Of a stretch of DNA of 64,000 bases, positions 1 to 37,119 are shown in pieces. How positions within the stretch are numbered: position 1 is the stretch's first letter; every line of letters starts with the position of its first letter. Source of the stretch: Trypanosoma brucei (Eukaryota); contig AL929603.2 in the NCBI GenBank assembly GCA_000002445.1, positions 64,001 through 128,000 of the forward strand, written 5' to 3'. The position numbers and the translations under genes were made by a program. The notes under the pieces are model-generated. The model was given only the letters and a program-made list of their open reading frames with translations. It had not been told where the DNA came from and ran no database searches.

Positions 1-3000
1 ACATATGAGATTCCTCAATATCGTTCACAAAATAAAAATAATTTCATTTCCTTCTGCATTCAGTTTCTCGTGTAGCAGTGTGTACACTAATCATCCATAA
101 AGTTTTTAATTTGCCAAATACATCATTACGAAACTATTTTCCACAAATAAACAAACAAACATTCCATTGGGACAATATCTTTGAGGAATTTCCTTCACTA
201 TATTTGCAGTTCAGTAGTGATTAAAAGAAACTTTCTGTATAATTCAACACATGGTGGAATTGCACAGAAATGTGATGGTACTTATAATCAACAAGTTCCC
301 AATTTTCCTCACATGGTCTCCTTTTTATGCCTTTACATCCTTATATAATTCACAGAGAATTACTGCAATTTCTTTCATATGCTTTCAGGATTCCATATGT
401 CACAACACAAATAATATATACATTTACACATATATATAATTTGGACATAATATTGCTTAACATATAAATTATCACAAACCTATGACTTTACACTCCTCCT
501 AAGAATAATAGAATCAAATTATTTCTATTTTGCATCATTACATGAAGCTTTGGAAAAGGAAAAAAAAGAATAAAACAAAAGGTAATGTAAAGAAAATAGT
601 TTTTTAATACAGAATATAACTTGTTTGTGAGTTTCAGATGCAAACACGAAATGTTCAAACAGGGAAACAGTAAAGGACGTTACTGGTGATGTAAGCACAA
701 ATTAACCAAAAATAGAAACATAAATAAAATTTAAAACTTATAAAAACACAAATATATATGACACAAATATTTACCACATATTATAATTCGCCACCCTCAC
801 ACTTGAATTACAAAAAGTACATAACACACATATGTGCCATCTTCTTAACATAATCATTCCAATATTTACTCAGTATGTGTGTGTGTGTAGAAATGATGAA
901 ATGTAATTGTAACAAATCAGGCACAACACAAACAAAATATATGCATTATATTATTCTCTAAAAAGTAGAAGAATAAAAATCAAGAAATATTACGCAGCTT
1001 TTCTCACAAGTAATTTTGTTTCTGTATACATATAACACGACAGCTAACAACATTAAACTCTCAATTCCATAATATCTGACACCTGAAGTGATAATTAGCA
1101 GCGGATGCCTTTAACAAAAAACAACAGAAATAACAACATCAAAGCATGTTTTGAAAGCTTAAATAAACTTCCTCATGGATAAACCATTTGTACAAAGTTT
1201 GAGTGCCAAGTAGGAGGAACAAAGAAAAATAAAAAAAGAATTAAATGGTAAAAGAATTGCGTGTGATATAACTAAAGGATTTGTTAGGCACTACACTCAT
1301 TAAACTCCAGTTTCATAAAAATACTGTAAGGCATAATATTTACTGCTTTACCGGTTATGTGCCTCCAGCAAGCAATAATAAATACTTCGAGTATTATTCG
1401 ATTTCTGATGCTATGAAGTGTGTAATAAATTAGTCCATGAGTAAAATATTCAAATGTTGGTGTTCACTTCAGATTATAAACTCTGCACTATGAATGTCTC
1501 TCGATGTTTATAATTTGAGAGAGCAAAAGTGACGGCGCTACTATTTATTTCTTCCAGTTCATGAATATATAAATATATTTATACATATATAATCAGATGT
1601 GACATGCAAAAGCGTTTAAACATCAGGCATGAACATCTTTCCATCCATTTAAAGTAAGACGATACAATAAGGTAAGTTTAGGATGAAGTGAAGGTATCAT
1701 AATGTTAATATCTTCCTTCAAGCGGAGGATTCAATTTAAATAGGCGTACTTCACAAACAATAGTAAAATAACTGAGAAAACTTATATCACTTAATCGTTA
1801 TTTCCTTCAATTCTTATTTTGAATCGCTCTGTACCGTCACACCTTCAATAAAGTATATAGTGACGCATTTCATACATCCTCCCTAAGCCATATCTCATAG
1901 TCATAGCTCTCAACAGAAATAATAACAAATAATGAATAGTTTAGTTCTTACCTTCCCTTTTTTACTACCCACAAGAAAGATATACGAAACAATTATCATA
2001 CTGAATAAACAGTAAGGTTTCCTCATCATCCTACGCAAAATATGAATTGAAACGATAATTTACTAACGAAGCGAAAGTGTCTGAAAGCGTCTTTAACTCG
2101 TCTCCTGTGCGGGGCGAAGAGGGTTGTGTTGTGTGGGCTTTCTAAAAATTTCACTCTCTTGCAGACAGCTGTGTAAATAAACGGGGAGTACAGGTGTGTT
2201 TAGAGAAATGTAACCGTACAAAATAATACTCTGCACTCCTAAGTCCAAAGCCATTCATAATGCAGGCTTTCATTAAAAAAATAAGTAGCAGTAGTAGTAG
2301 TAAGGAGAAAGCTATTGTTTTTCCCTCACTCCTGCTGCCACGTACATCATGCATGATACAACAGTTTCCATTTATTTTATGGTAGTTTTTTTCACATAGC
2401 AAGGGATACTCGGAATTGTTGTATCACTTTCGTTGTCCCAGCCATACTGTCTGCTTTTCATGGTTAAACTAAAACTCCAATGAAATCACATTGTTGTGTC
2501 ATCTTTTGTGAGTCACCAATAATGGTTGTGCCCCACATTTCTTCATGCTGGTAACTATTTTGTTTCCACGACATTTAACCACGTCATGCGCCTCACACTG
2601 ATACATATGTTGCATATCCATGTTTGAGTCCTCAATATTTCAGGGTTCGCCTGCTCCAGCCTCACGACATCGGCGTCTTCTAAAAAGAGCTTTGTAATGG
2701 TGTGTGAAACTCCAGGATTCTCCTTTATTAACTGATGGGGAGTTGATTCAAATTCAATAGTTCCTCATTTTCGCTAACGTATCGGAACCCCAGCCGAATA
2801 TCTTCAGGCAACTTCACTTGAGAGAGAAATGACTTTAGATCAAACAATGCTGCAGACTCGCCATGGAGAGTATTTAAATACTGGGAAAAGTGACCCAATG
2901 GGAGATATGCCTCATAATCATCCCTGCTCTTTTTAGCCTTTGGTCATGCAATAAACCAACGCCTTCTTCCAATTCTGTTTTTCCTCCATCACAAATAATG

Positions 3001-5903
3001 GCACACAACCCATCCTGTCGTATGTCTCTTTGAAACTGGGCTAATGATACGCGGCTGCTTCATTATTTGGGCATACTTTTCTACAATGCGCAATTCTGAC
3101 TCCTTCTTTGATACTTTCTCTCTTTGTTTCTTTCTGCATCATCTGTGCTATTCTTAATGCTCCAACCCTCATCAAATCGCTTACTCGCTGCTTGCATCAT
3201 CCTCTGTCAAATCCACGGAAGGGAAATCATTCCCACATTCATTTCCTATTGGAGAGGTGAAGTCTTTTTTTTTCCTCATCCCGTGAGGTCACCTTTGTTT
3301 TCCCTTGTGAGTGTCAAGGAATGCTGTGCAATCGATAATTTGGGAAAGTTATTCACCGTTATAAGTCCCGGCTTCCCTCACACTGGGGCCGCACATTCCT
3401 TCCAATTGTATCTTACATCAAAAACACCCAAAGAATCGACTTGCTGACGGCAGTTGTCACACATCTGAGATACCACACTGTGCTTCGTGGGAGTTCCATT
3501 GTGTAGATGTGCTTTCCCAATTGTATTAATAATATGTTGTCAATGTCGTGCTTCCATTGCAACTACTGCCGCTCCGCGTGTCAGCAGTGCTCTTCTCTTT
3601 ATGGAATGTTCTATCATTACGTATGGTCTTTTCAGTATGGTGTCACATTTTCCCTTTGTGGTAATCGTTATGAACTTCTTCCCCTTTCCTCCAGAGGTTC
3701 CTCCCTATGACTTTTCTCACACTGGCAATGTCCTTTTCCCAGTTGATAATTACGCATCGTATGACTCTGTGGGTATCGCTTTTGAATTTCTTTGGAAGGT
3801 TCCCCCCAAAATCCACTATTGAGGCTTGCCTGCCGTGTGAGTGTGGTATAACATTTTTCTCTTTTTTTTCGGAGCTGTGTAATTTCTTTTTGCCATCGCA
3901 TGGCTGGGTGTAATTCAGGTCACTACTCATATTGCAACTGGATACCACTCTGGACGGAACTTCCTGCAAGATATTATCGAATCACCATTACAACATGTGT
4001 TGTGTTTGTTTGATGGGTTCACCTGTTACCGTATTGTAAAGACGGACCCCAAAAACAACATCCGCGTCGGTGTGTCCAATAGAAATGATGAAAGAGTTCT
4101 CCTGTACTGAAATGGCGTTGCTCTCTGAGAGTCGTAAACTTACAAAAACAAATAAAAGTGCAGTTGCATCCCATGCTGGCATGCGGTAATGATTTTCAGC
4201 CAATGCATAAAAACACCGCATGATGAATTCCCTGTTCCTCACATGTTTTAGTCCTCAGCCACATTCACTTTCCTATTCTATTGGCTCCTGAAACCATTGC
4301 CATGATGTACGGATGGCTTTGTGTGTGGGAACTGCAATAAAATAAAAATAATAATAATAACTCCTTTCACCAATGAGTTTACTATTGGTTGTAAAAGTGC
4401 TCTTGGTGCCACTCCATTATTCTTTTTGAGTCCCCAGCTTTTGAGGGGCTACTGTATTTTTTAAAAAGAGTGATGCACCGTTTTATTCTCCACCCCTTTC
4501 AGGTGAATTTCTCCTGCACAGTTTTTACTCTCCCATTGTAGAATGTTTCTCAAGGTGTTTCCTTTGTGAAGCTTTGGTTATGCTATAATTAAAGACCACT
4601 CAACTCCCTGCTTCAGGGACCTGCTGTTGCATTTATTCCCCTTTAGTTGCTGCAAATTTGTTCACTTGACAAGTTGTAGTGCAATACTTCACTTGACCAT
4701 ATGTGTAACATCGTGTCTCGTTGCTTTATAAAAATTCAAAAAAAAAACACATCAGGTGATATTCTTCTGTTCTTACTTCGTACATTCACATCTCTTCCCG
4801 TCAGTTCGGAAACTCCCACACAAACTCACCACTCCGTGAAGATTTGTAGTTTCCGTTAGTGATGGACGTACTGAAGTGGACATGTTTGGCACTTTAAAAC
4901 TAATTTTTTAAACTTACACCTTCCTTCTTTCATAGAGCTTCAGTGCGAGAGTAAAAGAATAGTTGAGTATCATGAGAAAACATAAGCCTAAAACATTCTC
5001 AACGCAAGCTTTCAATAAAAGCAAACGCATTAAGATGGTTTAGTGAACACATGCAGTATCGTCCATAGCAAAGGTATTATTTACACCCAATAAACAACTC
5101 AAACAAATAACACCAGCATACATATCGCAGACATATAAATTGCACCTACACAAACAAATAAAAACTGCTGTAACTCATCATGTGTAAAATATTATGAGCA
5201 CAAAAACATAAATGTCCTTGATCTTCCATGAATGTATAGCACAATATTATTTTGCATTATCATCGGAAAAAAAATGTATATTGATATATATATTCAGCCA
5301 AAAGTCAAGAGTGTGCTCTGGCCTTGTAGAACTGTAAATGCGTGCATGTTCTGTTATTATTGTTTCCCATTTTAAAATAAAGATACTTGCAGATGTGGAG
5401 AAACGTCTCCCTTAATGCTTATGATGCACCAAATAATTCTCTCGCAAAGAAAGGAGAGAACAAATGCTCAGTACACGCGTCCCTATTTGTATCTTTCAAT
5501 GAAGGTTCTCTTGAGTGGAGTAAAGAAAAAACAAATAAAAAGCAAGAAGTATATGATGTGAGTGATAATACATAATGAAATGACCCAACAAGAGGGAAAG
5601 GAAGTTACATGCCTTCACTACAGTCATACAAATAAAGCCAGACCCTTCACACTCGTTTTACAATGTTCTGTCGTATCGCTCTGCATAAACAAAAAATTAC
5701 TAATAGGAAATGGAAATGTAAGAATAGAGTAAAAAAGTATCAAGTAGCTTGAGGATTATCGACACTCAGCTACGTGGAATGATACGTATCGCAAATTTGT
5801 GTTTGAAATGCTCACCATCCTAATGAACTTACTCGTATGTTACTTAATCCTAGGAAATACTTCTCTGTGCGCTCAAGTTACCCGACAACTTTCCTTCCAC
5901 ACC
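1..5903. repeat. A-type segment, copy 1, truncated at the window edge: 5.9-kb 3' flank of type-1 RHS with no ORF above about 110 aa. Near-identical to 15931..21853.
   Basis: Direct comparison: 1..440 matches 15935..16400 and 37125..37560. The short ORFs at 3124..3447 recur at 19071..19394. RHS1a at 5904 has its counterpart at 21854. Confidence 0.85.
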
Positions 5904-8405
5904 CTATGCATTGTTACCACCTCTATTGTTAACTCCGTTGTTATTTTCACCTCTTGTTTTCAATTCAACGTATAGTGCAATAATGTGTTTATAAAGTGAG
6001 ACCGCGAACTGACGCACTTCCCTTTTCCAAAATCTTTCCTCAACCTCATTATTTTGCCCTTCATCTCTGTCAGTCCTTTCACAGCACTGCGGCTTCGTAA
6101 TTTTTTCGCTGTCAACCCTTTGGACATAAATTATTTCCCATACCATATCATTGGAAAAATTGTCCCAACCTTGGAAGTAACTTCGCAAATACCTCTTCAT
6201 CTTAAATAACCCACCGGTGCTGCAGGGATGTCTACCGGAAACTGTGTACTGCAGTCCCACAAAAGTCTTCGGGCTCTCAACGAAAAAGAACGCATCAACA
6301 ACTGGGAAACTCCTTGATTGCGGCTTGTACAATTTCATATATTGAATTTCAGCTCCAGCTACAATTGGAACATCCTCAGGAACCACAATCGAAGGACCAA
6401 TGAGTCTTGGTTCTTGCAGCACCTGCAGCACACTTTGTGGAATTTGATTCCTAGCAAATGAAAGGCCCTGTAACTCCCTTGCCAACTCAGTTAGTGTATT
6501 CTCATGCGACAATGCTTCAATGCCACTCTTCTCAAACATGTAGGCGGCGATAGCGCGGTTAGACAGCAGAGCAGACATTGCAGCATATTTATCCGTTAGC
6601 CAAGGTATCAGAAAGTCTAAAATAGCTTGTCCCGTGTAAGATGAAAGCGGTCTGCAGCGATACATTTCACACAGGAGCTTCTCCTCCTTCACTCGAACAA
6701 CCCCTACTAACTTGTGTGATACTTCATCTGTTTGCCACATAGCTGCGTTTTGGAAATATTTAGCGTAATCATTCATATCATCATCTTTCATTTTGCCAAT
6801 GGCTTCCTGAACCTTTCCCTCCTGCCTGTTATACGAACTAAGACGACCAATATGACGAAGCAGTGGACCAACGATACGAATGCGACCTTGAATTTCTTGC
6901 CATTCACTTTCAATTTTCTCCTTTGCAACTGGAGGACTCCACTTGTAAGCAGGAGCAATTTTCCCCCATCTCGATATGTGTATGGCTTCCAAATCCTTCA
7001 ATGTATCACAGTTCATGTAAATATCTGAGGCGGTGTTTTGCTTGGACCATTCATGGAATTGCTTGACGTTTGGAGAGCTCAAAGCAATACCGGCACAACC
7101 AGCAGGTGGTTTCGTCGGAGCAGGATGGTCCTTGTCCACATCGAATATAACGTATCCCTTGATATCCTCACCGCTACGTGATCCTCCGATTATTTGCTCA
7201 ACAACTGTAAATGCATTCCCATAATCATTGTAAAACGTAACATATCCTGCTCGACCACCTATGGGTTTGTGAAACACATACGCCTTACCCCTCACAACGT
7301 ATATGATAATCTGAAGCTGACTCGCTTCATAATGCAGTAGTTTGTATAACAGTAGGGATCCCACGGAAAACGATTTACCAATACCAGGTGTACCAATAAG
7401 AACATTAGACGCATCGTCAACAATCACTTCATCCATAAGCCACCGGTTAAGCACATTCTCCACCTTGTACCACACCCTCAGTGCTTCCCTGCGGATATAA
7501 ACATCACTTTTAAAAACATACTCCACTCCCTTCTCATGATTAATATCATAATCATTTGGGTTCTTTTCGAAAGACGTGTATGGCCAACCCATTTGAGATG
7601 TAAGCACAGCAATCTCCAAGTTACCGTGACGGGGAAGTGGTTCGTTCATAGTTTCCGGAGTGTGACTGACATCAACCTCCTCCTTCGTCCACATGTGTGG
7701 CGGTCTTCCATTGAACACTTTCATGCCAAGTGGCTCTTCATCATAACCCGACTCCACATAACCCCACGTCGCATTGTATATAGAATCATATACTCCTTTA
7801 AGTTCGCTACCATCAGCTGTTTGGGCAGCTCGCTTTTCCGCTCTCTTGGCGGCCGTCACCGCTCCATCCAACCTTCCCCTCGCCACGGGACCAACAAATT
7901 CTCTTATTTCCACTGTCCCCTTCTCCTCCCACTGACTGAGGTAGTAAATTTCTTTTTCGTCAAGGTAGTCTACCTTCTCAGACAGATCAATAGCTGTCTT
8001 CACTGTTTTAAACTCATTAGTGCCTTGTATATCCTCAAGAATCTCAGCATCAACAATATATTTTCTGGGATTCTTAACAAAAATGGGCATCCTAACATTT
8101 TCTGCCTCAGCCACCGCAAAAGTCCCGCCAACGAACTTCTGAATAAAGTCGTTCACTGTCATATCCCTCAAACCCGCATAATCATCCAGCAGCACATCCC
8201 TCACCTTACTATCCATTGTCCAGTTGGGCCCCCCTTCAGTTCTCTGCCGTATTTGTGGAGGCTGAGCAGCAGCAGCAGCAGCAGGAGGAGGAGGCGGCGG
8301 TACATTTTCATCCCGTGGCCTCCTCATGGGCCCTTCAAAATTATCTGCCACTTGTTGATTTTCATTATTTCCTTGTGGAGCTGCGGGACTATTTGCTCTT
8401 GACAT
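5904..8405 (-). CDS. RHS: Retrotransposon hot spot (RHS) protein, type-1 copy a, 833 aa, intact. N-terminal Pro/Ala tract and P-loop (GTPGIGKS).
   Basis: The 2502-nt ORF opens with ATG (cat on the plus strand at 8403..8405). Its N-terminus (MSRANSPAAPQGNNENQQVADNFEGPMRRP...) is shared by all RHS copies in the window. A Walker-A motif LIGTPGIGKS lies near 7365..7390. It is 99.8% identical to 21854..24355. Paralogs in the window are disrupted by ingi at the homologous position, which is characteristic of the T. brucei RHS family. Confidence 0.8.
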   Translation of the reverse strand: MSRANSPAAPQGNNENQQVADNFEGPMRRPRDENVPPPPPPAAAAAAQPPQIRQRTEGGPNWTMDSKVRDVLLDDYAGLRDMTVNDFIQKFVGGTFAVAEAENVRMPIFVKNPRKYIVDAEILEDIQGTNEFKTVKTAIDLSEKVDYLDEKEIYYLSQWEEKGTVEIREFVGPVARGRLDGAVTAAKRAEKRAAQTADGSELKGVYDSIYNATWGYVESGYDEEPLGMKVFNGRPPHMWTKEEVDVSHTPETMNEPLPRHGNLEIAVLTSQMGWPYTSFEKNPNDYDINHEKGVEYVFKSDVYIRREALRVWYKVENVLNRWLMDEVIVDDASNVLIGTPGIGKSFSVGSLLLYKLLHYEASQLQIIIYVVRGKAYVFHKPIGGRAGYVTFYNDYGNAFTVVEQIIGGSRSGEDIKGYVIFDVDKDHPAPTKPPAGCAGIALSSPNVKQFHEWSKQNTASDIYMNCDTLKDLEAIHISRWGKIAPAYKWSPPVAKEKIESEWQEIQGRIRIVGPLLRHIGRLSSYNRQEGKVQEAIGKMKDDDMNDYAKYFQNAAMWQTDEVSHKLVGVVRVKEEKLLCEMYRCRPLSSYTGQAILDFLIPWLTDKYAAMSALLSNRAIAAYMFEKSGIEALSHENTLTELARELQGLSFARNQIPQSVLQVLQEPRLIGPSIVVPEDVPIVAGAEIQYMKLYKPQSRSFPVVDAFFFVESPKTFVGLQYTVSGRHPCSTGGLFKMKRYLRSYFQGWDNFSNDMVWEIIYVQRVDSEKITKPQCCERTDRDEGQNNEVEERFWKREVRQFAVSLYKHIIALYVELKTRGENNNGVNNRGGNNA
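8264..8300. repeat. (CAG)6(GAG)3GGCGGCGG trinucleotide tract encoding the Pro/Ala run in the RHS N-terminus. Length varies between copies.
   Basis: gcagcagcagcagcagcaggaggaggaggcggcgg. The same tract recurs at about 13774..13810 and 24214..24250, and in shorter form at about 34944..34970. That copy encodes PPPPAAAAA where the others encode PPPPPPAAAAAAA. Confidence 0.8.
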
Positions 8406-10440
8406 AACTCTCTTAATATTATTAACTTAACTTCCTTTCCTTTTCTTTTTTCTCTGAAATTATAAATAACTGAAGTAAAATAATAGATAAGAAAACAATA
8501 GCGGGTGAACAGTGTAACATAATATCAAATGTAATAGAGCGCGTTAATGTTTATTCACTATAGTTTGCAGAATATGATATCATAATGTATTTGGTATTGA
8601 GAGGAACAATTTCAAAATATAGCAGCTGTAAATAAATATTTCCCTTGCTTCATTATCATGTGCTAAATATAATGAACTTCATACATCATTTCTTTAACTA
8701 TGAATAACATGCAGACAAAAAATATTACTGCCTCATATACCTGCATAAACACTTCGTATATATAATCAATATTTAAAGAGAGTCAAATTCTATTGATTAA
8801 AATCAAGTAAAACAATAAACAAAAAATTTATGGATATTAATGAAGCGAAGAAAAAGAGTATCGGCACAACACATAGATATACACACACATGAATACACAC
8901 CACACAACTACACAACTGTTCCACTGGAGTTTCCTCACTTCTGTCAATACGTAACATTCACTTGCATTGAATAAACTCATTGAAATATAAATCACTTATC
9001 CCCTCCCCCGTGTATTCACTTACTTCCAAAGGAGAATATTAAATAATGTCTGTAGGACAGGTAAAAAAAAACTGATAGTCTTTTTGCATCAGATAACCAG
9101 AGAGTATTTCTGTTTACTTTCATAATAAATAAAAACATTCTTTCACCTTCAGTTAAAATAAAATTTAATTACTTGCCTCCTCATTGTTCACAACTATCAA
9201 CAACTAATTCAGCGACACAAATTCATATGTATTTTATGTGCCATCGTTGTTTGATTCATTCACACACCTTTTATGATAGCGATAATACAACATATGGAAA
9301 ATAATTGGAATAAAATTAATACAATTAATTGAGGAAACCGTAAAAGATTATCATAACATATCTTTTATTTTCCCTCCTTTCATTTACACTGATTAATTAT
9401 GTAATGAGACAATTCCTTTTCAGTACGTGTCCACACTTATTGTATCATCATTGTAAGTTTCCTATTGCTCATATACACAAAGTTATTGGAATAACAAAAA
9501 AATAAAACAACACATCTAAATAACTTGAAAAAATATATAACAAATAAAGGTAATAAAGAAAATAAGCGTGAACAGACAGATAATAAAATGAAACACGTCT
9601 CGCACTTTCCTTCTAAATATTCAATAGTTGTATGTTACAAATAAAAACAATTACACATTATAGAAAAGAAGAGATATAATTACATTATACACCTGTATGT
9701 GGATATGTAACAGTGAGTCATAGTAGAAATAAATTGTCTAAACACAATAGTTATGGAAGATAAAATAATTCAAAATATCAATAATATTATTCTATCAACA
9801 TTCCCTTCCTTCTCCATTAAGTTTTCAAATGGTTTCAAATAATAATTCACATAATCTCATACATATGTTATGATGGGTTTTGCATGCAGTACAATTTAAA
9901 GGAAGTGTAGCTCATATAACATTTTCAAAAATAGGTATTGAATGACTGTTTGCTACCATCAATTACATTTCCAATGCCTGATTACACTTTTATATGCATG
10001 AAGGAAGTTACTGATGATAACTTTGACATGCTCGAGAATTCATAACACAAAGCGACTGCTGCATGCAATAAAAAATAAAAATAAAAATAACATCCGAATT
10101 CATTTACTGACAGATGAGTGCAATTCATTCACCCAAACTTCATAGCTGCAAATATAAACTCGCTGCTGCCAATAGGAAATAATCCCGCATAAATATTGAG
10201 TATCTGAAAATGATAGCAACGGGTTTCCATTTTTGAAATATATACATAAACTACATGAGGTATATGAAGCCATATTGGTAAAGTGTCACTACGCATGTTG
10301 CAATTTACTATCAGAAGTGTCTGCCTTATTTTATTTCTTGTGTTAATGTAACTCATGAGTATTATTCATTATTCTTTACAATACAACTGTAAGTCATTTT
10401 GCATTTTTACATATTTTCTTATTCCCTCATACTGGAAGTG
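8406..10440. repeat. B-type segment copy 1: approximately 2.0-kb conserved 5' flank of RHS genes (upstream in the sense of minus-strand transcription).
   Basis: Begins aactctcttaatattattaacttaacttcctttcc. The segment recurs at 13916, 24356 and 35082. Copies 1 and 3 are near-identical over 2 kb. Confidence 0.8.
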
Positions 10441-27364: not shown

Positions 27365-28785
27365 TCAGGCAGCGGGGCCACCAGCAATAGCGTTTGGTTC
27401 ATCCTGGGTGATCTCCTTAACAATATTCCCTTCCATCTTCACTTGAAACTGGTTGATTCTATTCCACAACTCTGTAGTATAATCGCCTCTGCCCCCAACT
27501 GGTTCGCACTTCTGCCTCTCCTCGATTGGCTTGCTGTCACTGTACTGTATGTAAATCAGCTCCCATTTCAAGTTTCTTGCGAGCTTATCCCATTCACCAA
27601 ACAATTGTTTCATTGCCTTGATAAACTTATCTACCTTCTCTCGTGTCGTGTGATGCGTTGGTGCCACTGTCGCCTGGAGCAGAACAATTGTTGTTGTAAT
27701 GATCGCTCTTCCTTCTCTATCAACAGCTGGCTCAGTTACAAAGAAAAAGGCGTCCACAACGGGGAAATTTCCCTGTACAGGTCGGTAAAGGCACCCAACC
27801 TTGATGTCTTGGCCTGTCGTTTCGGGGTAAATATGACGAAGTGAAGTTGGAACACGTCCCACGGCATTACCACTTGCCAGAGCGGATACATTTGAATCCA
27901 TTTCTTCTCCAACGCGAGGGAGATACCGCAGGTGCGTCACAATCGTCTGCACAACATTTCTCATCGTGAAGGCAAATATGCCCACATTTTCAAATTCATC
28001 AGCGGCCCGCTCTTCTTTCCCACGAAAAACCTTTCGAAGGTAATTGTCTCGCATACATGCTGTGTTCGCCCACACTCTCAATTTCTGCTCAATATCAATG
28101 GAAACAGCTCTGTTTCTGCATTCTTCTCCATTCTCAGTTACAACCCGGACCAACTTAGCTAACATGTAAGTAGTCCCGTCCTGGCGCCATTGAACTCGAC
28201 TATTCAGCACCTTCATGTAGTGACTATCATCGCCTCTACTGATTTCTGCCAGTGCCTCATTTATTTCTCTAACGCGGCCCTTGTAGCGTTTTTCACCTTC
28301 CAGTACTTGGCGGGCCAGTGGGCCCACCTTCTTAATCCATCCTTCTATTTTCTGCCATTCATTCTCAAGGTTTATGATGTGAGCTTCGGTGATTTTACTT
28401 TCGTCCAACTTCGACAGCCGCCTCCACGCAACCGCAGCCTTCAGTTCCACCTCTTCATAGCAATTGATGCAAAAGCGCTCGCAAGCCCGTGGCCGCTTCC
28501 AGCGTCTGTAGTTATTTGGATCTGGAGATGTCAACACAATTACGGGCCACGTTTCCGGCAATTTTGTCGGTATGGGTTCATCTCTCTCTTTCGCAAAGTC
28601 GTATATAATGTAACCAAGACCTTCTTCATCAGCCAAGTCATTGACAGCATCCACTCCATCTTTTTCTTCTTCATAAAATACAACCTTTCTCGGATGAACA
28701 TTTGTCGCCCTGAAGAAAATATATGCCCTACCCTTCACAAAATAAGCGATAATCCGCAACAGCTCCGAATCGTAATGCAGCAACC

Positions 28786-28797
28786 TTTGGAGCAGAA
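28786..28797. repeat. Target-site duplication, 3' copy, of ingi-1 (plus strand tttggagcagaa; element sense TTCTGCTCCAAA).
   Basis: Immediately follows the element poly(A), which is a plus-strand T10 at 28798..28807. It is a 12/12 match to 34052..34063. Confidence 0.85.
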
Positions 28798-29069
28798 TTT
28801 TTTTTTTGAATTTTCTTCGTGCCTTCGTGAGAGTTTCTCCCAACTGGCGCGGCCATCAGCCATCACCGTAGAGCCCTGAGATGCTATCGGTCTGGCGACT
28901 GTGGCAGAGTCTCCCTTTTTTATTCATCCTAACACACCCTCTATAATTTTTGTTGTAGCTCCGCATATGAACGGAATACAGTAGATGGGGCGAGAAGCCC
29001 CCCTCACCCCGGACTCTCCCAAAGATGTCAATTAGCAATCCTTTTGTTTTGATTTTTGTTATTCGTTTA

Positions 29070-32000
29070 TTATTCTCTCCCCCTCTTTCTGTTTCTGTTG
29101 CTTGTTGACTGCATACCTCCTCTGTCTCTGAGGGTGTCTGGACTATTCCTGCGTCCGGTGCTTTTCCTGCTAGCTCCACATTCGGCAATAAGGGGGGAAG
29201 TTGCAGAAGGGAGAGTGGGTTGTATGACTGTTACCTTAGGTGAGGACTTCACCTGCGGCCGGCTCCGTTCAACCGCAATGAGAAACTGCGCCAGCCTTTT
29301 GGAGAAACATACATCCTGCACACACTCACCTTCTACCGCAAATCTGACACGTAACTCCTTCAAACCGGGACAGCTCATCAAGTGCAGCGACGTTTCTTCG
29401 CAGTCGCCGCGTTGGCTGGTAACAGCGCGCTCTACCTTCATACCGTGCATCTTCTTTTGATGTAGGGTGAGGCCAGTTTTGCTAGCACACTGCCTTCCGC
29501 ATGTCGGGCACACCAACATGGATGTGTTTGTATGCGGGGAATCAGTGGCACACAATTTTGTGCTTTTGCTGCATTTAAGCTCGACTCCCTCACCTTTGTG
29601 GAAAGCCTTACAGTGTCGGATGAGGGAGTCCCTGCAACTGAGCACTTTTTGGCACACACCACACTGCACCTCGCCCTTCCCCGGGACGTCAACGTTTCCC
29701 TCACGGGCACGCTTACGAGGGAATTGCACCAACACCACGGTACCGTCCTCCGTCACTATGCTTTTATGTTTGAATTTCTTGTGTAGTGTCAGGGAAGAAC
29801 GTGTACCGAAGCTCGCCTCGCACAGGTCACATTGAAACGGCAGCTTCCGTGTATCCTGAGAGGCTGGCGCTGCTGGGGCTTTACCATCTCCTTGCACTGA
29901 GTCCTCGTTCTCTCGCCCCCTTTTCACGCGGCAACTGCCGCTGCCTATGCCATGTATTGTTCTAAGGTGGTGTAGTAGTCTGCCTGGCACTGCGAATTTG
30001 GAGGCACAGATGGTACAATGAAGCACCTGCGGTCTCATCGGGACTCGTGTGCTCGATGGTAGGGGAACGATCGCCACCACTGGAGGGGGCTCCGGGGGGA
30101 TATCCACTGCAGGTGTTGCATCGCCGTATTTGATCCTCCGGAGGGCATCAGCTCGCACAAAGCCATGTTTGTTTACCATATGCGTTACAGCACTCGAGCG
30201 GCATTGGTATGTGGCATCACATTCCGTACATTTGGTCGGTTCGGAGGTTCTTTGAAGAGTGCGTGTCGCAACAGTTGGGGCTGTTTGTATTGTTGGCCCT
30301 ATCTCTGCATGTTGCGGGTTGCACCATCGGCACTGTGGAGGCACACTCGGGTTAATCTTTCGCAACATCCATCCATAGTGTCTTGAAGACCCAACCCGAA
30401 AGCGTGCCAGTGCCGTTTCTTCTTCCCTCGTCAGTTCTTCCTTATGTTTTGTTGGAAAGTGGTTGCCCGTGATACCAAACCTATGAGTGTTCTCATGGAC
30501 TTCTTCCGACCTAAGCACTCGCTTCGCATAAGCAATGATGTCGGGGATCCATGTGTCTCGCAACTGTGGTAAATCTGCGGCCTTTTTGGCCATGTCATCG
30601 CAAACCTCATTCCGTTTCACGCCACAATGGCCAAACACAAATTGCAGTCGGATACGTATCTTCCTTCTCTGAACTTGAAGCAGAAGCCTCCATAGTCGTC
30701 TTAGAATTGGGTCCGTTACGGCTAGGGGGCCTGTCTGCAGTGCTGTTAACATTGACAGCGAGTCAGAGAAGATGGACAACCTGCTCGGTGTGGTTCTGTA
30801 TGCCGGAAGCCATTTCAGCAGCCGTTGCAGTCCTATCTCTAATGCTACGCATTCCGCTCTGTAACTGCATGAAAGTTCCCCTGCTCCTGTCTTAGGTGCA
30901 CAAATCAGCGTGTTGTTTCTATAGAGCAGGGCAGCTGCTCCGGACTTCTCACCGAGGGACACGGATCCATCAGTCCACAATTCGTAGTGCTCTCGCCGCG
31001 GTGGCTCCTTCCCCCTCCGTGCAAAATGTCGTTCAATCCACTTTTCGGAAGCCTCCCTTTTGACATCGTCAGGGTCATCAGCGCACACAGGCTTTATCTG
31101 CGTGTGAAATATCGGTCGGCAGCTGTGGCGGAGCGTCGATGTCTCTAGTGGGTGCTCGCGTGGCTCAATGCGGAGGTGGGGGTAGGACCGCATGATACGG
31201 GAATGTAGGGCTCTGACTGGGTGTTTGCTGTGGTATACTTCTTCAGCACTGCGCCGCAAACATCCGCCTCGTGACTCACACATCAGCATGAATTTCATGC
31301 TGCGCACAAGAGTGGCCGTCTTGAGTGGCAGGAGGTTTGCTTCCAGCAGAGAGTCCTCTTTGCGCGTCCCATGCGGTATGCCGGCTATGATGCGACTGGC
31401 TTTGTGTTGTGCTGATGCAAGGAGGTCGCGACTTCGTTCCGAAGCGTCCCAGTACCATACCTCAATGCCATACATGGTGTGTGCCTGTACGAGTGCTAGA
31501 TAAAAAGTTCTCAGTACTTGTCGTCTTGGCCCCCATGTAGAAGCTGAGATGGCTGCTATCTGCAGTAGTCGGAAGTCCATCTTGCGTCTCGTTTCGGCCG
31601 CATGTGTTGCCATCCCCTGCAGACACTGGAATGTTACTCCTAGAAGCTTCGGTGTCCTGTCAGCTCCTATTCTTTCACCGTCCAGTTGTAATGTAAGGGG
31701 GTGGCGCTCTATACACCCGAAGAGTGTGCACTTTGTTTTCGCTACGTTGACAGACATGAAGTACTCTTTTGACCACTGTAACACCACGTTTAGACCGCAT
31801 TGTAGTGTGTGGTTGATGACATCCCTCTCTGTGTGCCTCGCAAGTAGCGTTAGGTCGTCTGCAAAGAATCCGTGCTGCAGTAACGGCACCTCTGCAAGGC
31901 GTTGGCTCAACGAGTTCATGACAATAATGAACATGATTGGGCCAAGGACAGTTCCTTGTGGCACTCCTCGCTCAAATGTTCTGCTTCTGGAAAGCTTCTC

Positions 32001-34051
32001 CTTGAATCTCACTCTGCCAGTTCGGTTACTCAGAAATGATACGCACCACTTCACAATGTGGGGTGATACCTTCATTCTGTGCATTTCCCTCGCAATTTTG
32101 TCGTGGTCTACTGTATCAAATGCCTTCTCGTAGTCAACGAATACAGCACCCGTACGATATTGGTGCGTGGGACGGCAGAGGGCAGCGCGGACGTGCAGGA
32201 GTTGTTCGAGCGTTGAGCATCCGGGGCGAAAGCCTGATTGCTGCGGCGTCAGCTGGGACTCAACAGTGTCTCTAAGTCTCGCGGCAATTATGCGCTCCAT
32301 GACTTTGCAGAGACAGCTCGTGAGCGTCACAGGCCTGTAAGAATCGAGGTCCTCCGCCTTTTTTCCGGCCTTCAGGATGGGGATGATAACACCAGTCTTC
32401 CATGCAGGCGGCACGACTCCCGTTCGTAGGCTCTCATTGAATAGCCTCAGAACAACATTCAGCGCTGTTCTGCCGAGATGTTGCAGTGCCTCGTTGTATA
32501 AGCAATCAGGTCCGGCTGCGGATCCACTCGGTAGCAGTTTGATCGATCTCCGTAGTTCAGCCATCGTGATGGGACTGAACTCACTCGCTATCGTCTTTAT
32601 TGGTGCCGGTGGGTGTGAGTCGGGGTGCCTTCTTGCGCGGGACGAGTACAGTTTACTGAACCTCTCAGCTTGACGGTAGTCCGTGATGGCCGCGTTATCT
32701 ACAAGTACAGCCGGTGTGGTTAGTGGTCGTGGCGCATATACCTTCTTGACAATGTGCCAACTGCAGCGGTCTGACACCGCAAGTCTGGAGCATAGCGTGC
32801 TCCATCTCTTCTTTGTGGTACGGTCCAGGATCTGCTTACGCGTGGCTACCAACTTTTCCCTTCGGTGGGAGGGTCCGCATCCAGCGATCTCTTCATCGAG
32901 TTTCGCGAGCTCAGGTGTCCAATGTGGTGGCGTTGCTCTGCAGCCACGGGGGACGGAGACCTTCGTCGCAATGCGGATGGCGGAGCTCAATTTCTGTTCC
33001 AGGGTGTTGACGTTCTTCTCTCTACCAATTTTCCTGCAGAGCTCGTCAACCTTGAGACGGAAATTCCTCCAGTTAGCTTTTAGCCATGCGTACATGGGCT
33101 TTTGAAGCCGCGGGCAACTCAGTGCATCTGTGTCGTCTCCAACGATAACGTCGAAAAATATGTGATGGTGATCGCTATCGGGAGAATACAGCGATGTCCA
33201 CGTGTACACTGTGCAATTCCTTGACAGTGTCACATCAGGGGTGGACTCCCCGTGGTGGCGCGCGTACCTGGTGCACTCACCAGTGTTGCAGACCAGAAAC
33301 TGGTTGTCAATGCACCACTGTGTGAGGGTTTCACCCTTGGTATTTGGTGGGCTCGCGCGATCCCATGCCAACGCGTGTGCGTTAGCGTCTGCACCGATGA
33401 GCTGGGCACCGTCAGTCGTCAGAAGCGTATCTAGGTCAGTTGCCGTGAAGGTGTGTTTTGGTGGGATGTATGCCGACGTGACAGTCAGCGCCGTTCCACG
33501 TGCAAGGTGAATTGTTGCATGCACTTGTTCAATGCGACCAATAACGGCCATACCGGTCTCGACTGGTAGGTCCTCCCTCACTAGTATTGATACACCACCT
33601 CCTTTGCAGTTACGAGCTATTCCGTGATGTTGGTAGCCAGCAACGCTAAAGCAAGCCGCCTCTCCAGGCGTCATCCTTGTCTCGCTCAACAGACAAAAGG
33701 CGATCCGCTCATCAACAAGGGTTTTGTGGAGTGCTAATCTCTTTCCTTGAGATAGCCCGGCGCAGTTCCACTGCATCCCGCGCAACGACGGGCCGGGATT
33801 CTCTTCCACATCACCGGACAGCAGCATCTTAGTGCGGATGATACTGCTGATGGCACGCTGGCACGTGCCCAGGGACCGACAAATGAAAGACGGTGTCCCA
33901 GCAAGACGCTGCTGATCCCTGTGCTGTATGATGCCGTAGCCGGAGCACAGCAGTGTTCCCCATGAAAGGAACGCTGCTGGCTCTTGGCTTCCCCCGATGA
34001 TACGGGGTACTGGACCCTGGCACCACGTTGAGGTGGCCGGCATCGCCAGGG
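29070..34051 (-). CDS. ingi polyprotein ORF of about 1660 codons with no stop or frameshift. Domains in protein order: leader with 2A-like motif; APE-type endonuclease (about 33132..33776); reverse transcriptase (about 31752..32534, FADD motif); RNase H (about 30582..30989, HYELWTDGS...); five C2H2 zinc fingers (about 29442..30227). The stop codon is at 29070..29072.
   Basis: This is the ingi-derived portion of the 2003-aa ORF 29070..35081. Domain motifs were read from the translation: MQWNCAGLSQ...FFDVIVGDD for the endonuclease; PQGTVLGPIMF...GFFADDLTLL for the RT; CTECDATYQCRSSAVTHMVNKHG and CPTCGRQCASKTGLTLHQKKMHG for the fingers. It is in frame with the upstream RHS codons. The element's own first ATG is at nt 9..11. 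Confidence 0.8.
33789..33812 (-). other. 2A-like co-translational 'self-cleaving' motif DVEENPGP, in the context IIRTKMLLSGDVEENPGP|SLRGMQWNCAG. It lies about 80 codons into ingi-1, upstream of the endonuclease domain.
   Basis: Codons 424 to 431 of the 2003-aa ORF; plus strand cgggccgggattctcttccacatc. It matches the D(V/I)ExNPG|P consensus of viral 2A and of 2A-like sequences reported in trypanosomatid L1Tc/ingi elements. Confidence 0.85.
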
Positions 34052-34063
34052 TTTGGAGCAGAA
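34052..34063. repeat. Target-site duplication, 5' copy, of ingi-1 (tttggagcagaa).
   Basis: These are the last 12 nt of the RHS 5' part (codons F-L-L-Q plus A) abutting the ingi 5' end at 34051. Confidence 0.85.
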
Positions 34064-35081
34064 ACGAGCCAACACCAAATGATTTCCCAATACCTGGAGT
34101 GCCAACGAGGACGCAAGGTATCTTTTTTTTATTCACGCCTGGCCCTAACCACAAATCCAGCCTCTGCTTCACAAGATACCACACTCTCATTACCTCTCGA
34201 CGAATGTACACATCCCGGTCAAACACGTAGTCTCCTGGTTCCTCCGCACCCTCTTGAATTACACTTCGCGGAATACGGAAACGGTTAAACGGCCAACCCT
34301 TCTGCGAGGTGAGCACAGCAATCTCTAAATTACCGTGACGAGGCAGTGGGTCGCACAAGTCATAAGGCGTGTGACTGACATTCACCTCCTCTTCTGTCCA
34401 CAACTCGGGCTCGCCGTCACTATTACCCACAACCTTCATGCCAAGAGGTAAATCATTGTGGCCCGATTCCACATAACCCCACGTCGCATTGTATACGGAT
34501 TCATATACTCCTTTCAGTTCGACACCATCAGCTGTTTGGTGAGCTCGTTTCCTTGCTTCTTTGGCGGCCGCCAACGCTCCATCCAACATTCCCCTCGCCA
34601 CGGGACCAACAAATTCCCTTATTTCCCCTCTTCCCTTCTCCTCCCACTGCCGGAGGTAGTAAATTTCCTTCTCAGACAGATAAATAGCTGCCCTCACTGT
34701 TTTAAATTCATCAAGCCGCCGTATCCTTCCTAGAATCCCGGCATCCAAAATATAATACTCCGGGCTCTGAACAAACACATCCATTGCCACATTCTCTGTG
34801 TCATACGTATTAGAGAATTTTTTCAGCAGAAAGTCATGCAACTTCATATCCCTCAAACCCTCACAGCGTTGCAGCAATACATCTTCAATAGAACTATTCA
34901 TCGTCCAGTTGGGCCCCTCTTCAGTTCTCTGCCGTATTTGTGGAGGCTGAGCAGCAGCAGCAGCAGGAGGTGGCGGTACATTTTCATCCCGTGGCCTCCT
35001 CATGGGCCCTTCAATATTACCTGCCACTTGTTGGTTTTCATTATTTCCTTGTGGAGCTGCGGGACTATTTGCTCTTGACAT

Positions 35082-37119
35082 AACTCTCCTAATATTATTA
35101 ACTTAACTTCCTTTCCTTTTCTTTTTTCTCTGAAATTATAAATAACTGAAGTAAAGTAACATATGAGGAAAATAATAGCGGGTGAACAGTGTAACATAAT
35201 ATCAAAAGTGATCAAGCATGCTAATGTTTATTCACTATCATTTGTATAATATGATATCAAAATGTATTTGGTATTGAGAAGAGCAATTTCAAAATATAGC
35301 AGCTGTAAATAAATATTTCCCTTGCTTCATTATCATGTGCTAAATATAATGAACTTCATACACCATTTCTTTTTTAAACCATATATAATATGGAAACGAA
35401 AAATATTACTGCCTCATACACCTGCATCAACACTTCGTATATATAATCAACATTTACAAAAAGTCAAATTCTATTGATTAAAATCAAGTAAAACAATAAA
35501 CAATAAAAATATATGGATATTAATGAAACGAAGAAAAAGATTATCGGAACAACACATAGATACATACACACATGAATACGCACTACACAATTGCTTCTTT
35601 GTATATCCTCCCCATTTTTACAATTCATAATATTCACTTGCATTGAATAAACTCATTGAAAATATAAATCACCTATCCCCTCCCCCGTGTATTCACTTAC
35701 TTCCAAAGGAGAATATTAAATAATGTCTGTAGGACAGGTAAAAAAAAACTGATAGTCTTTTTGCATCAGATAACCAGTGAGTATTTCTGTTTACTTTCAT
35801 AATAAATAAAAACATCATTTTGCCTTCAGTTAAAATAAAATTTAATTACTTGCCTCCTCACTGTTCACAACTGTCAACAACTAATTCAGCCCCACACATT
35901 CATATGAATCTGATGTGCCATCATTGTTTGATGAATTCACACACCTTTTATGATAGCGATGATACAACACATTGTAAAAAATTGGAATAAAATTAATACA
36001 ATTAATTGAGGAACCCATGAAAGACTATCATAACATTTTTAAAATTTACCTCCTTTCATTTACACAAATTAAATATGTAATGAGACAATTCCCTTTCAGT
36101 ACCTGTCCACACTTATTGTATCATCATTGTAAGTTTCCTATTGCTCACATACACGAAGCTATTGGAGTAACAAAAAATAAAACAACACATCTAAACAACT
36201 TGAAACTATATATAATAAATAAATAAAGGTAATAGAGAGAATGAGCGTGAACTGACAGATAATAAAATGAAACACGTCTCGCACTTTCCTTATAAATATT
36301 CAATAGTTGGTATGTTACAAATAAAAACAATTACACATTATAGAAAGGAAGGGATATAATTACATTATACACCTGTATGTGGATATGTAACAGTGAGTCA
36401 TAGTAGAAATAAATTGCCTAAACACAATAGTTATGGAAGATAAAATAATTCAAAATATCAATAATATTATTCTATCAACATTCCCTTCCTTCTCCATTAA
36501 GTTTTCAATGGTTTCAAATAATAATTCACATAATCCCATACATGTGTTACGATGGGTATTGCATGCAGTACCATCTAAAGGAAGTGCAACTCATATAACA
36601 TTTTCAAAAAAAGGTATTGAATGGTTGTTTGCTACCATCAATTACATTTCCAATGCCTAATTACACTTTTATATGCATGAAGGAAGTTACTGATGATAAC
36701 TTTGACATGCTCGAGAATTCATAACACAAAGCAGCAGCTGCATGCAATAAAAAATAAAAATATAAATAACATCCGAATTCATTTACCGACAGATGAGTGC
36801 AATTCATTCACCCAAACTTCATAGCTGTAAACATAAACTCGCTGCTTCCAATAGGAAATAATCCCGCATAAATATTGAGTATCTGAAAATGATAGCAACG
36901 GGTTTCCATTTTTGAAATATATGCATAAAATACATGAGGTATATGAAGCCATATTGGTAAAGTGTCACTACGCATGTTGCAATTTACTATCAGAAGTGTC
37001 TGCCTTATTTTATTTCTTGTGTTACTGTAACTCATGAGTATCATTCATTATTCTTTACAATACAACTGTAAGTCATTTTGCATTTTTACATATTTTCTTA
37101 TTCTCTCATACTGGAAGTA
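35082..37119. repeat. B-type segment copy 4 (5' flank of RHS2b).
   Basis: Same start sequence and body as the other B copies. It is the most diverged of the four. Confidence 0.75.

What the first reader, a model, noticed from the sequence alone, without database searches (positions are those of the whole stretch)
1..37119. A tandemly duplicated 15.9-kb dimer unit (RHS1 plus RHS2 with A, B and C flanks) at 99.8% identity between units. Either a very recent segmental duplication or active gene conversion.
What the sequence shows:
- Unit 1 spans about 1..15930.
- Unit 2 spans 15931..37119. Subtracting the 5266 bp of ingi plus TSD gives 15.92 kb.
- A third unit begins at 37120 and breaks off at 38078.
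- RHS1a and RHS1b differ at 2 of 833 codons. B1 and B3 are near-identical over 2 kb.
- The RHS2 copies and the B2 and B4 flanks are more diverged. They differ by indels in the Pro/Ala tract and by a 12-aa deletion.

Identity is uneven across the unit. This suggests patchy gene conversion rather than a single duplication event.
Basis: seen in the sequence. Interest (0 to 1): 0.5.

Follow-up and report, generated by a model that had tools for sequence, protein, structure and literature searches.

The report
Mosaic RHS1–RHS2 tandem repeat, T. brucei
This is the known cluster of retrotransposon-hot-spot (RHS) genes on Trypanosoma brucei chromosome 1: a real 15.9-kb head-to-tail repeat whose two copies are 96.8% alike overall, not 99.8%, in a patchwork that fits the recombination already described for this gene family.

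Summary
The tandem repeat is real. Its period is 15,934 bp: unit 1 is 1-15934, unit 2 is 15935-37123 and carries a 5,254-bp ingi plus a 12-bp target-site duplication, and a partial unit 3 is 37124-38064.

The headline figure of 99.8% is wrong for the whole unit. Global identity is 96.8% (503 mismatches, 37 indel events). Identity runs from 89.5% to 100% across 11 segments. Only about 5.85-13.25 kb is near-identical (99-99.9%). This stretch holds RHS1, its 5' flank, the spacer and the 3' two-thirds of RHS2, and a 200-bp patch at 90% interrupts it. The remainder (RHS2 5' end, B2/B4, A flank) is 90-96% identical. That makes the two units as far from each other there as from a copy on T. equiperdum chromosome 2.

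Uniform divergence is rejected: the longest identical run is 1,646 bp, against a maximum of 501 bp in 20,000 simulations. A single recent whole-unit duplication is not supported. Partial homogenisation by gene conversion or unequal exchange is.

The window is T. brucei TREU927 chromosome 1. RHS genes, the ingi hot spot and mosaic tandem arrays are all published. Verdict: ordinary and already known.

The parts
1..15934 (.). Repeat unit 1. Its phase is set by the window edge. Bases 1-159 are the end of a B-type flank, so the array probably continues to the left.
   Evidence: Self-alignment; global alignment.
15935..37123 (.). Repeat unit 2. It is 15,923 bp once the ingi and one TSD copy are removed.
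37124..38064 (.). Partial third unit, comprising the end of a B-type flank plus about 750 bp of the A flank. It is 94.8% identical to unit 1 and 95.9% to unit 2. Homology ends 24 bp after a (TG)n run.
5904..8405 (-). RHS1a, intact, 833 aa. Identical to XP_846389/CAD53024. Contains DUF7578, RHS_N and RHSP domains.
21854..24355 (-). RHS1b, intact, 833 aa. Identical to XP_846392/CAD53027. It differs from RHS1a by 5 nt and 2 aa.
11423..13915 (-). RHS2a. The ORF is cut to 706 aa by a 1-bp deletion in a G run near 11882, so this is a probable pseudogene. Its 5' 290 bp (13664-13953) is identical to the RHS1 copies.
   Evidence: No such protein is in the collection.
27365..28797 (-). RHS2b 3' part, downstream of the ingi insertion.
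34064..35081 (-). RHS2b 5' part. It is in frame with the ingi ORF, giving a 2,003-aa ORF at 29070-35081. The first 345 residues are RHS2b, followed by 1 junction codon (Ala).
28798..34051 (-). ingi copy 1, 5,254 bp. It has an intact canonical ORF (34043-29073; 4,971 nt; 1,657 aa), a short poly(A), and perfect 12-bp TSDs at 28786-28797 and 34052-34063. It is inserted 5 codons after the RHS P-loop GTPGIGKS.
   Evidence: PMC3447711; PMC7563717.
8406..10611 (-). B1, the 5' flank of RHS1a. It belongs to the shared 3-kb module of 5' flank plus N-terminal coding region.
13916..16096 (-). B2, the 5' flank of RHS2a.
24356..26555 (-). B3, the 5' flank of RHS1b. It is 99.5% identical to B1.
35082..37285 (-). 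B4, the 5' flank of RHS2b. It is about 90-92% identical to B2, and no closer to the T. equiperdum copy at the collinear position.
5851..13250 (.). Recently homogenised tract, in unit 1 coordinates (unit 2: about 21801-28797 plus 34064-34458). Identity is 98.8-99.9%, apart from the patch at 12201-12400.
   Evidence: Segmentation.
12201..12400 (.). Divergent patch inside the RHS2a CDS. All 20 differences are private to unit 1. Unit 2 is identical here to the T. equiperdum chromosome 2 copy and matches the chromosome 2 RHS2 proteins.

Best explanation
The window is the RHS cluster near the left end of T. brucei TREU927 chromosome 1.

**The module.** The repeat is built from an RHS1-RHS2 module. 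Each gene is preceded by the same roughly 3-kb segment, made of a 2.2-kb AT-rich 5' flank plus the conserved N-terminal coding region. The module is older than this array, because a collinear copy sits on T. equiperdum chromosome 2 at about 91% identity.

**Recent homogenisation.** Within the array, a tract of about 7.4 kb was recently made nearly identical between the two units. It covers RHS1, its 5' flank, the spacer and the 3' two-thirds of RHS2. The likely cause is non-reciprocal homologous recombination, either a long gene-conversion tract or an unequal sister-chromatid exchange.

**The rest of the unit.** The RHS2 5' end, its 5' flank and the 5.7-kb A flank keep family-level divergence of 4-10%.

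**Smaller exchanges on top of this:**
- a 200-bp tract copied into RHS2a from an unidentified divergent donor;
- a 290-bp stretch shared between RHS2a and the RHS1 copies;
- patches in the A flank.

**The ingi insertion.** Afterwards an ingi retrotransposed into the canonical RHS hot spot of RHS2b by target-primed reverse transcription. It made a 12-bp duplication and an in-frame RHS2-ingi ORF.

**Shown:** the repeat, the mosaic, the discordant segment histories, the insertion anatomy, and the identities of the genes.

**Inferred:** the recombination mechanism, the direction and order of events, and that the ingi came last.
For: **Source and gene identity.** Exact matches to TREU927 chromosome 1 proteins XP_846389, XP_846392, XP_846398 and XP_846396 (Tb927.1.270) fix the source. 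Pfam finds RHSP, RHS_N and DUF7578. The RHS2 label comes from the cluster member AAL14353, named 'RHS2a'.

**Repeat.**

**Mosaic.** Eleven segments range from 89.5% to 100% identity. The longest identical run is 1,646 bp, against a null mean of 200 bp and a maximum of 501 bp in 20,000 simulations.

**Selection does not explain the identical block.** The block includes about 3.4 kb of non-coding DNA. Only 2 codons of RHS1 differ synonymously, although the neighbouring flank differs at about 4%.

**Discordant ages.** The RHS1a/RHS1b 5' segments are 99.5% identical, while the RHS2a/RHS2b segments are 92.8%.

**Exchange between the RHS1 and RHS2 halves of a unit.** Positions 13664-13953 are 100% identical to 8154-8443 and 24104-24393. 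RHS2b is about 85% identical there.

**External reference.** T. equiperdum chromosome 2 (L004) is collinear with 7671-18221 at 90.9%.
- In the near-identical tract, both units are equally far from it (90.8-95.8%).
- In 13200-16900, it sides with unit 1 and unit 2 about equally often.
- In 12200-12399, all 20 differences are private to unit 1.

**ingi.** It has perfect TSDs and an empty site in unit 1, and an intact 1,657-aa ORF. That is the length given for potentially functional copies (PMC3447711).

**Insertion site.** The site lies five codons after the P-loop, which matches the position quoted in PMC7563717.

**Published precedent.** Jackson 2007 (PMC1855330) reports partial gene conversion in 21 of 47 T. 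brucei tandem arrays. That study also finds CDS and UTR histories discordant in an RHS array.
Against: - No donor was identified for the divergent patches, because no T. brucei genome can be searched with these tools.
- Conversion cannot be told from unequal crossing-over using two units.
- The left end of the array lies outside the window.
- T. equiperdum chromosome 1 is collinear only from 34432 rightwards. It carries an RHS3-like pseudogene where TREU927 has RHS2::ingi. So the array could not be confirmed in an independent assembly.
- Near-identity of the 3.6-kb block could in principle be inflated by consensus merging during assembly.
- The reverse scenario fits the two-unit data about equally well. 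In it, the whole unit duplicated recently and ectopic copying then overwrote half of one unit.
Confidence: 0.6

Rival explanations
1. A recent duplication of the whole 15.9-kb unit was followed by ectopic gene conversion. Other RHS loci (about 3 kb of 5' module is shared by all RHS subfamilies) overwrote roughly half of one unit: the RHS2 5' end, B2 or B4, and the A flank.
For: - The most diverged part (13.25-15.15 kb, about 90%) is exactly the 5' module shared by RHS genes genome-wide, which has the most potential donors.
- The T. equiperdum comparison shows this module recombining with another subfamily, RHS3-like, at about 34432.
- Another copy of A-flank sequence exists elsewhere on chromosome 1: XP_846407 is at least 90% identical to the ORF at 16183-16518.
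Against: - The A flank (5.7 kb, 95.8%, itself mosaic) is not part of the shared RHS 5' module, yet it is also diverged.
- In 13200-16900 the outside copy sides equally with either unit. So neither unit looks 'original'.
- Several separate long ectopic events would be needed.
Confidence: 0.2
2. A single recent segmental duplication was followed by ordinary mutation. The uneven identity would then come from purifying selection on coding sequence.
For: The most identical block begins about 50-90 bp beyond the RHS1 stop codon and covers the only intact gene.
Against: - The block extends through more than 3 kb of non-coding DNA.
- Only 2 codons of RHS1 differ synonymously, in 2.5 kb of coding sequence.
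- The RHS2 CDS contains both 99.5% and 90% stretches.
- The longest identical run is far beyond the uniform null.
- Homologous segments differ 14-fold in divergence.
Confidence: 0.03
3. The array is an assembly artefact. It could be a false tandem join of haplotypes or clones, or a collapsed or expanded copy number.
For: - No read or clone data are available here.
- An independent long-read assembly of a related strain (T. equiperdum OVI) does not show RHS2::ingi at the collinear position.
- The array runs off the window.
Against: - The two units differ at 540 events and by a unit-specific ingi with perfect TSDs against an empty site.
- The B-to-A unit junction recurs three times with sequence differences, at about 159/160, 16096/16097 and 37285/37286.
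- Both RHS1 copies are separately annotated in the finished clone-based chromosome.
- The same module order occurs on T. equiperdum chromosome 2.
Confidence: 0.05

Closest known systems
RHS (retrotransposon hot spot) multigene family of T. brucei, subfamilies RHS1 and RHS2 (Bringaud et al. 2002, as summarised in PMC7563717), and the chromosome I RHS/LRRP region (Hall et al. 2003, from my own knowledge; the paper was not readable here)
   Same: - Exact protein matches to annotated RHS1 genes of TREU927 chromosome 1.
- The same domain set.
- A conserved N-terminal region with subfamily-specific C-terminal regions.
- A P-loop followed five codons later by the ingi/RIME hot spot.
- Pseudogenes made by in-frame retroelement insertion.
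- Neighbours that are LRRP, DUF1181 and adenylate-cyclase pseudogenes.
   Different: Nothing essential. The fine-scale identity map of this particular pair of units may not have been published in this form.
Concerted evolution of tandem gene arrays in T. brucei by partial gene conversion or unequal crossing-over (Jackson 2007, PMC1855330). The same processes have been proposed for T. cruzi RHS (PMC7563717).
   Same: - Head-to-tail units.
- Chimaeric copies.
- Coding and flanking parts with different histories.
- Stretches of 99-100% identity next to diverged stretches.
   Different: - The repeat unit here is a two-gene module of 15.9 kb rather than a single gene.
- Only about half of the unit is homogenised.
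- One of the two gene types, RHS2, is a pseudogene in both units.
ingi non-LTR retrotransposon (LINE) of T. brucei
   Same: - 5.25 kb long.
- A single 4,971-nt ORF of 1,657 aa with endonuclease, reverse transcriptase, RNase H and zinc-finger matches.
- An A-rich tail.
- A 12-bp target-site duplication.
- The RHS hot-spot target.
   Different: None found. Copy 1 is intact. Copy 2 (58518-63723) is frameshifted.

Membership tests
RHS protein family (RHS1 / RHS2) | RHS_N (PF20445) and RHSP P-loop (PF07999) domains | tested here: met
   RHSP E = 1e-120 to 1e-140 and RHS_N E = 1e-57 to 1e-60 in all copies. DUF7578 is also present.
RHS protein family (RHS1 / RHS2) | Subfamily assignment by the C-terminal region | tested here: met
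   RHS1a and RHS1b are identical to proteins named 'retrotransposon hot spot protein 1 (RHS1)'. Reconstructed RHS2b is 87% identical to the cluster that holds 'RHS2a' AAL14353.
RHS protein family (RHS1 / RHS2) | Retroelement hot spot five codons downstream of the ATP/GTP-binding motif | tested here: met
   The junction reads GTPGIGKS-FGVGS, then the TSD, then the ingi. The position agrees with the statement in PMC7563717. ingi copy 2 sits at the same relative site of a degenerate RHS.
ingi retrotransposon | About 5.25 kb, with a single ORF of 1,657 aa carrying endonuclease and reverse transcriptase | tested here: met
   The element is 5,254 bp. The ORF at 34043-29073 is 4,971 nt. Pfam finds Exo_endo_phos, RVT_1, RNase_H and zf-C2H2. 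Reference values are from PMC3447711.
ingi retrotransposon | A-rich 3' tail and a target-site duplication, with an empty site in a paralogue | tested here: met
   The tail is A10. The 12-bp TSD is perfect. A single copy of the target lies at 12844-12855 in unit 1. That 12 bp is typical for ingi is from my own knowledge.
Tandem array under concerted evolution (gene conversion / unequal exchange) | Head-to-tail repeat units | tested here: met
Tandem array under concerted evolution (gene conversion / unequal exchange) | Array copies are more alike than either is to copies at other loci or in other strains | tested here: inconclusive
   This holds in 7671-13199: units 99-99.9% alike, against 91-96% to T. 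equiperdum chromosome 2. It does not hold in 13200-16900, where all three are about equidistant.
Tandem array under concerted evolution (gene conversion / unequal exchange) | Mosaic identity and discordant segment histories beyond chance | tested here: met
Tandem array under concerted evolution (gene conversion / unequal exchange) | Identified donor and recipient for each tract, and evidence that the process is ongoing | not testable with these tools
   This needs the whole TREU927 genome and other strains. TREU927 contigs are not in the gene-position index.
Simple recent segmental duplication | Roughly uniform, low divergence along the whole duplicated segment | tested here: not met
   Identity is 96.8% overall. 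Segments range from 89.5% to 100%, with a dispersion index of 5.8.

The most novel reading that the evidence does not exclude
Homogenisation may not be random. It may be maintained preferentially over the only intact gene of the module (RHS1 and its 5' flank), while the RHS2 copies decay as retroelement landing pads. There may also be a preferred recombination breakpoint in the conserved RHS_N motif region (ELKGVY..YNATWGYVESG, about 34275-34470). The unit 1/unit 2 identity switch and the TREU927/T. equiperdum homology break fall within about 200 bp of each other there. If so, this site would be a defined crossover hot spot that shuffles RHS 5' modules onto different C-terminal subfamilies.
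Probability: 0.15. Interest if true: 0.35.

Novelty: already known. Interest (0 to 1): 0.15.

Why it matters
This has little importance beyond bookkeeping. It corrects the identity figure from 99.8% to 96.8%. It also shows that the two units are a mosaic rather than a fresh duplicate.

RHS clusters are known recombination-prone, retroelement-rich regions next to trypanosome subtelomeres. This locus is a clean worked example: partial homogenisation, exchange between subfamily 5' modules, and a young, intact, in-frame ingi insertion. It could serve as a test locus if long-read data from several strains were compared.

Tried and rejected
- **Fetching the source chromosome.** Exact-protein look-ups for RHS1a, RHS1b, P0001, LRRP and P0031 all returned nothing. 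TREU927 DNA outside the window was therefore unavailable.
- **Third homology search.** A search with the RHS N-terminal region, meant to find T. equiperdum chromosome 1 array genes, gave none.
- **T. equiperdum chromosome 1.** It could only be reached from the right (L002, L003). It stops being collinear at window 34432, so the array itself could not be compared.
- **T. equiperdum L001.** It carries an ingi plus an RHS2 3' half, but with a different 5' flank and no matching TSD. It is not an orthologue.
- **Primary papers.** Bringaud 2002 (PMC118050) and the chromosome I and II papers were not held.
- **A flank (160-5900).** No Pfam match for any ORF. tblastn found no RHS, ingi or LRRP remnant. 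Its nature remains unknown.
- **Other scans.** Tandem Repeats Finder and Rfam found nothing in the window.
- **Purifying selection** as the cause of the identical block was considered and rejected, because the block includes non-coding DNA and RHS1 shows almost no synonymous differences.
Full report
**Source.** The 833-aa ORFs at 5904-8405 and 21854-24355 (minus strand) are identical to XP_846389/CAD53024 and XP_846392/CAD53027. Both are named 'retrotransposon hot spot protein 1 (RHS1), putative' and lie on a 1,064,672-bp record of Trypanosoma brucei brucei TREU927. The 1,448-aa ORF at 48972-53318 is the LRRP XP_846398, and the ORF at 42654-43025 is Tb927.1.270. The window is therefore the RHS/LRRP region of chromosome 1, in chromosome orientation.

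**The repeat is real.**
- Self-alignment gives 1-12855 = 15935-28797 (97.5%) and 12844-16839 = 34052-38064 (91.3%).
- The 12-bp overlap between these two alignments is the target-site duplication of an ingi. TTTGGAGCAGAA occurs once in unit 1 (12844-12855) and on both sides of the element in unit 2 (28786-28797 and 34052-34063).
- After removing it, the units are 15,934 and 15,923 bp long.
- A partial third unit runs from 37124 to 38064, and homology ends 24 bp after a (TG)n run.
- Bases 1-159 of the window already match the distal end of the B-type flank. The array therefore most likely continues to the left, and the unit phase is an artefact of the window edge.

**The identity figure is wrong for the whole unit.** A global alignment of the two units has 15,364 matches, 503 mismatches and 123 gap columns. 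That is 96.8% identity, or 96.1% counting gaps. Segmentation of the 540 difference events gives the mosaic below.

| Segment (unit 1 coordinates) | Identity |
|---|---|
| 1-600 | 93.3% |
| 601-2500 | 97.6% |
| 2501-3050 | 89.5% |
| 3051-3400 | 100% |
| 3401-5850 | 95.9% |
| 5851-9450 | 99.9% (5 differences) |
| 9451-12200 | 98.8% |
| 12201-12400 | 90.0% |
| 12401-13250 | 99.4% |
| 13251-15150 | 89.7% |
| 15151-15934 | 95.4% |

The longest run without a difference is 1,646 bp (7827-9471). When 540 events are placed uniformly, the mean maximum run is 200 bp, and the largest seen in 20,000 simulations is 501 bp. The variance/mean ratio in 100-bp bins is 5.8.

**Anatomy of a unit.** All genes are on the minus strand.
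- *Shared 5' module.* Each gene is preceded by the same module of about 3 kb: a 2.2-kb AT-rich 5' flank (B1 8406-10611, B2 13916-16096, B3 24356-26555, B4 35082-37285) plus the conserved N-terminal coding region.
- *RHS1a and RHS1b.* Both are intact. They differ by 5 nt, in two non-synonymous and two synonymous codons.
- *RHS2a.* It has a 1-bp deletion in a G run near 11882 that truncates it to 706 aa. No such protein is on record.
- *RHS2b.* It is split by the ingi.
- *RHS2 assignment.* It rests on 87% identity to a cluster that contains 'RHS2a' AAL14353.
- *Indels between the RHS2 copies.* A 9-nt Pro/Ala-tract indel and a 33-nt (11-aa) indel.
- *A flank.* No recognisable gene was found in the 5.7-kb A flank.

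**The ingi.** The ingi ORF at 34043-29073 is 4,971 nt, or 1,657 aa. This is the length quoted for potentially functional copies (PMC3447711). It has endonuclease, reverse-transcriptase, RNase H and zinc-finger matches. It sits five codons after the P-loop GTPGIGKS, at the published hot-spot position (PMC7563717). It is in frame with the 345 N-terminal codons of RHS2b, which gives a 2,003-aa ORF. The 850 bp around the insertion site are 99.4% identical between the units. I therefore infer that the insertion came after the homogenisation of this tract.

**Evidence for exchange rather than simple duplication.**
1. *Homologous segments give discordant ages.* The RHS1a and RHS1b 5' modules are 99.5% identical, while the RHS2a and RHS2b modules are 92.8%.
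2. *RHS2a shares a stretch with RHS1.* Positions 13664-13953 of RHS2a are 100% identical over 290 bp to both RHS1 copies, whereas RHS2b is about 85% identical there. Further along, RHS2b is the copy closer to RHS1.
3. *Selection does not explain the near-identical block.* It includes more than 3 kb of non-coding DNA, and RHS1 shows almost no synonymous differences.
4. *An outside reference is informative.* A locus on T. equiperdum chromosome 2 (L004) is collinear with 7671-18221 at 90.9%, which shows that the RHS1-RHS2 module predates this array.
   - Over 7671-13199 the two units are 99-99.9% alike, and both are 91-96% identical to that copy.
   - Over 13200-16900 the three sequences are about equidistant, and the outside copy sides with unit 1 and unit 2 equally often.
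   - In the patch at 12200-12399 all 20 differences are private to unit 1, and unit 2 is 100% identical to the outside copy. The chromosome 2 RHS2 proteins also carry the unit 2 version. This patch looks like a short tract copied into RHS2a from an unidentified divergent donor.

**Interpretation.** The best reading has four parts:
- an RHS1-RHS2 module array of some age;
- about 7.4 kb (5.85-13.25 kb) recently homogenised by a long conversion tract or an unequal sister-chromatid exchange;
- several short exchanges on top of this;
- a young ingi insertion last.

The reverse history is a recent whole-unit duplication followed by ectopic overwriting of half of one unit. It cannot be excluded without the rest of the genome. 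An assembly artefact is unlikely for three reasons: the 540 differences between units, the unit-specific ingi set against an empty site, and the three diverged copies of the unit junction. It cannot be tested here without reads.

**Other strains.** T. equiperdum OVI chromosome 1 is collinear with the window from 34432 to at least 59603, at 94.6-96.7% identity. To the left of 34432 it carries an RHS3-like pseudogene without an ingi. The RHS 5' module is thus joined to a different subfamily. [quoted passage not shown] The break lies within about 200 bp of the point where unit 1/unit 2 identity switches. This is suggestive only.

**Known context.** The following are already published:
- the RHS family, its six subfamilies, and the hot spot with the pseudogenes it creates (Bringaud et al. 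2002, via PMC7563717);
- partial gene conversion with discordant CDS and UTR histories in T. brucei tandem arrays, including an RHS array (PMC1855330).

From my own knowledge, the chromosome I paper (Hall et al. 2003) already noted an RHS/LRRP-rich region of about 160 kb, and tandem genes of 99-100% identity attributed to amplification and gene conversion. I could not read that paper here.

**Verdict.** The preferred interpretation, patchy exchange, is supported. The finding is ordinary and already known.

Noticed in passing
window 58518-63723 (+), TSD TTCTCCTTCACA at 58506-58517 and 63724-63735; flank 58026-58522: A second ingi, 97% identical to the first and in the opposite orientation. Its ORF is broken into three pieces. 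It sits in a highly degenerate RHS pseudogene at the same relative hot-spot position: the upstream flank ACTCCAG...GGCTCAC resembles the P-loop region, and tblastn to RHS3/4-type proteins gives E = 1e-5 to 1e-6.
   Followed up: partly
window 29070-35081 (-): A 2,003-aa open reading frame fuses the first 345 residues of RHS2b, in frame, to a fully intact 1,657-aa ingi ORF. This copy could be translated as an RHS-ingi fusion and might be retrotransposition-competent.
   Followed up: partly
window about 11882 (-): RHS2a has a 1-bp deletion in a G/C homopolymer (GGG against GGGG in RHS2b). This shifts the frame and truncates the protein to 706 aa. It is either a real pseudogene mutation or a homopolymer sequencing error.
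   Followed up: no
window 38064-42650: This looks like a divergent strand-switch region. RHS genes to the left are on the minus strand, and everything to the right (cyclase pseudogene, DUF1181, LRRP, ingi copy 2) is on the plus strand. Cumulative GC skew reaches its minimum here.
   Followed up: no
window 43958-46958 (+): A fragmented receptor-type adenylate cyclase (GRESAG4-like) pseudogene. Separate ORFs match the two periplasmic-binding-like domains and the cyclase catalytic domain.
   Followed up: no
window 48381-48743 (+) and 48972-53318 (+): A 120-aa DUF1181 ORF (E = 2e-82) lies directly upstream of the 1,448-aa leucine-rich repeat protein. The same pair is conserved in T. equiperdum. 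The LRRP has an internal diverged repeat (50798-51058 against 51440-51700).
   Followed up: no
L003 1-2475 (T. equiperdum CM010672.1 59063-61537), collinear with window about 34432-35081: At the collinear position T. equiperdum has a chimaeric RHS pseudogene. It has a common N-terminus of about 211 aa, then frameshifts, then RHS3-like sequence, with no ingi. The homology break lies in the conserved ELKGVY...YNA motif region.
   Followed up: partly
L001 4118-9374 (T. equiperdum CM010672.1, about 922-927 kb): An ingi is joined at its 3' end to an RHS2 3' half, as in the window (TSD-like TTCAGCTCCAAA). Its 5' flank is unrelated and has no matching duplication. This suggests a rearrangement through recombination between ingi copies.
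   Followed up: no
window 160-5900 and 16097-21850: The 5.7-kb A flank downstream of RHS1 has no ORF of 200 aa or more. It also has no Pfam, RHS, ingi or LRRP similarity. It is unusually long for a trypanosome intergenic region and is itself mosaic (89.5-100% between units).
   Followed up: partly
window 16183-16518 (+): This ORF is annotated 'hypothetical protein, unlikely' (XP_846390). It has a paralogue at least 90% identical further along chromosome 1 (XP_846407). A/B-flank sequence therefore recurs outside the window.
   Followed up: no
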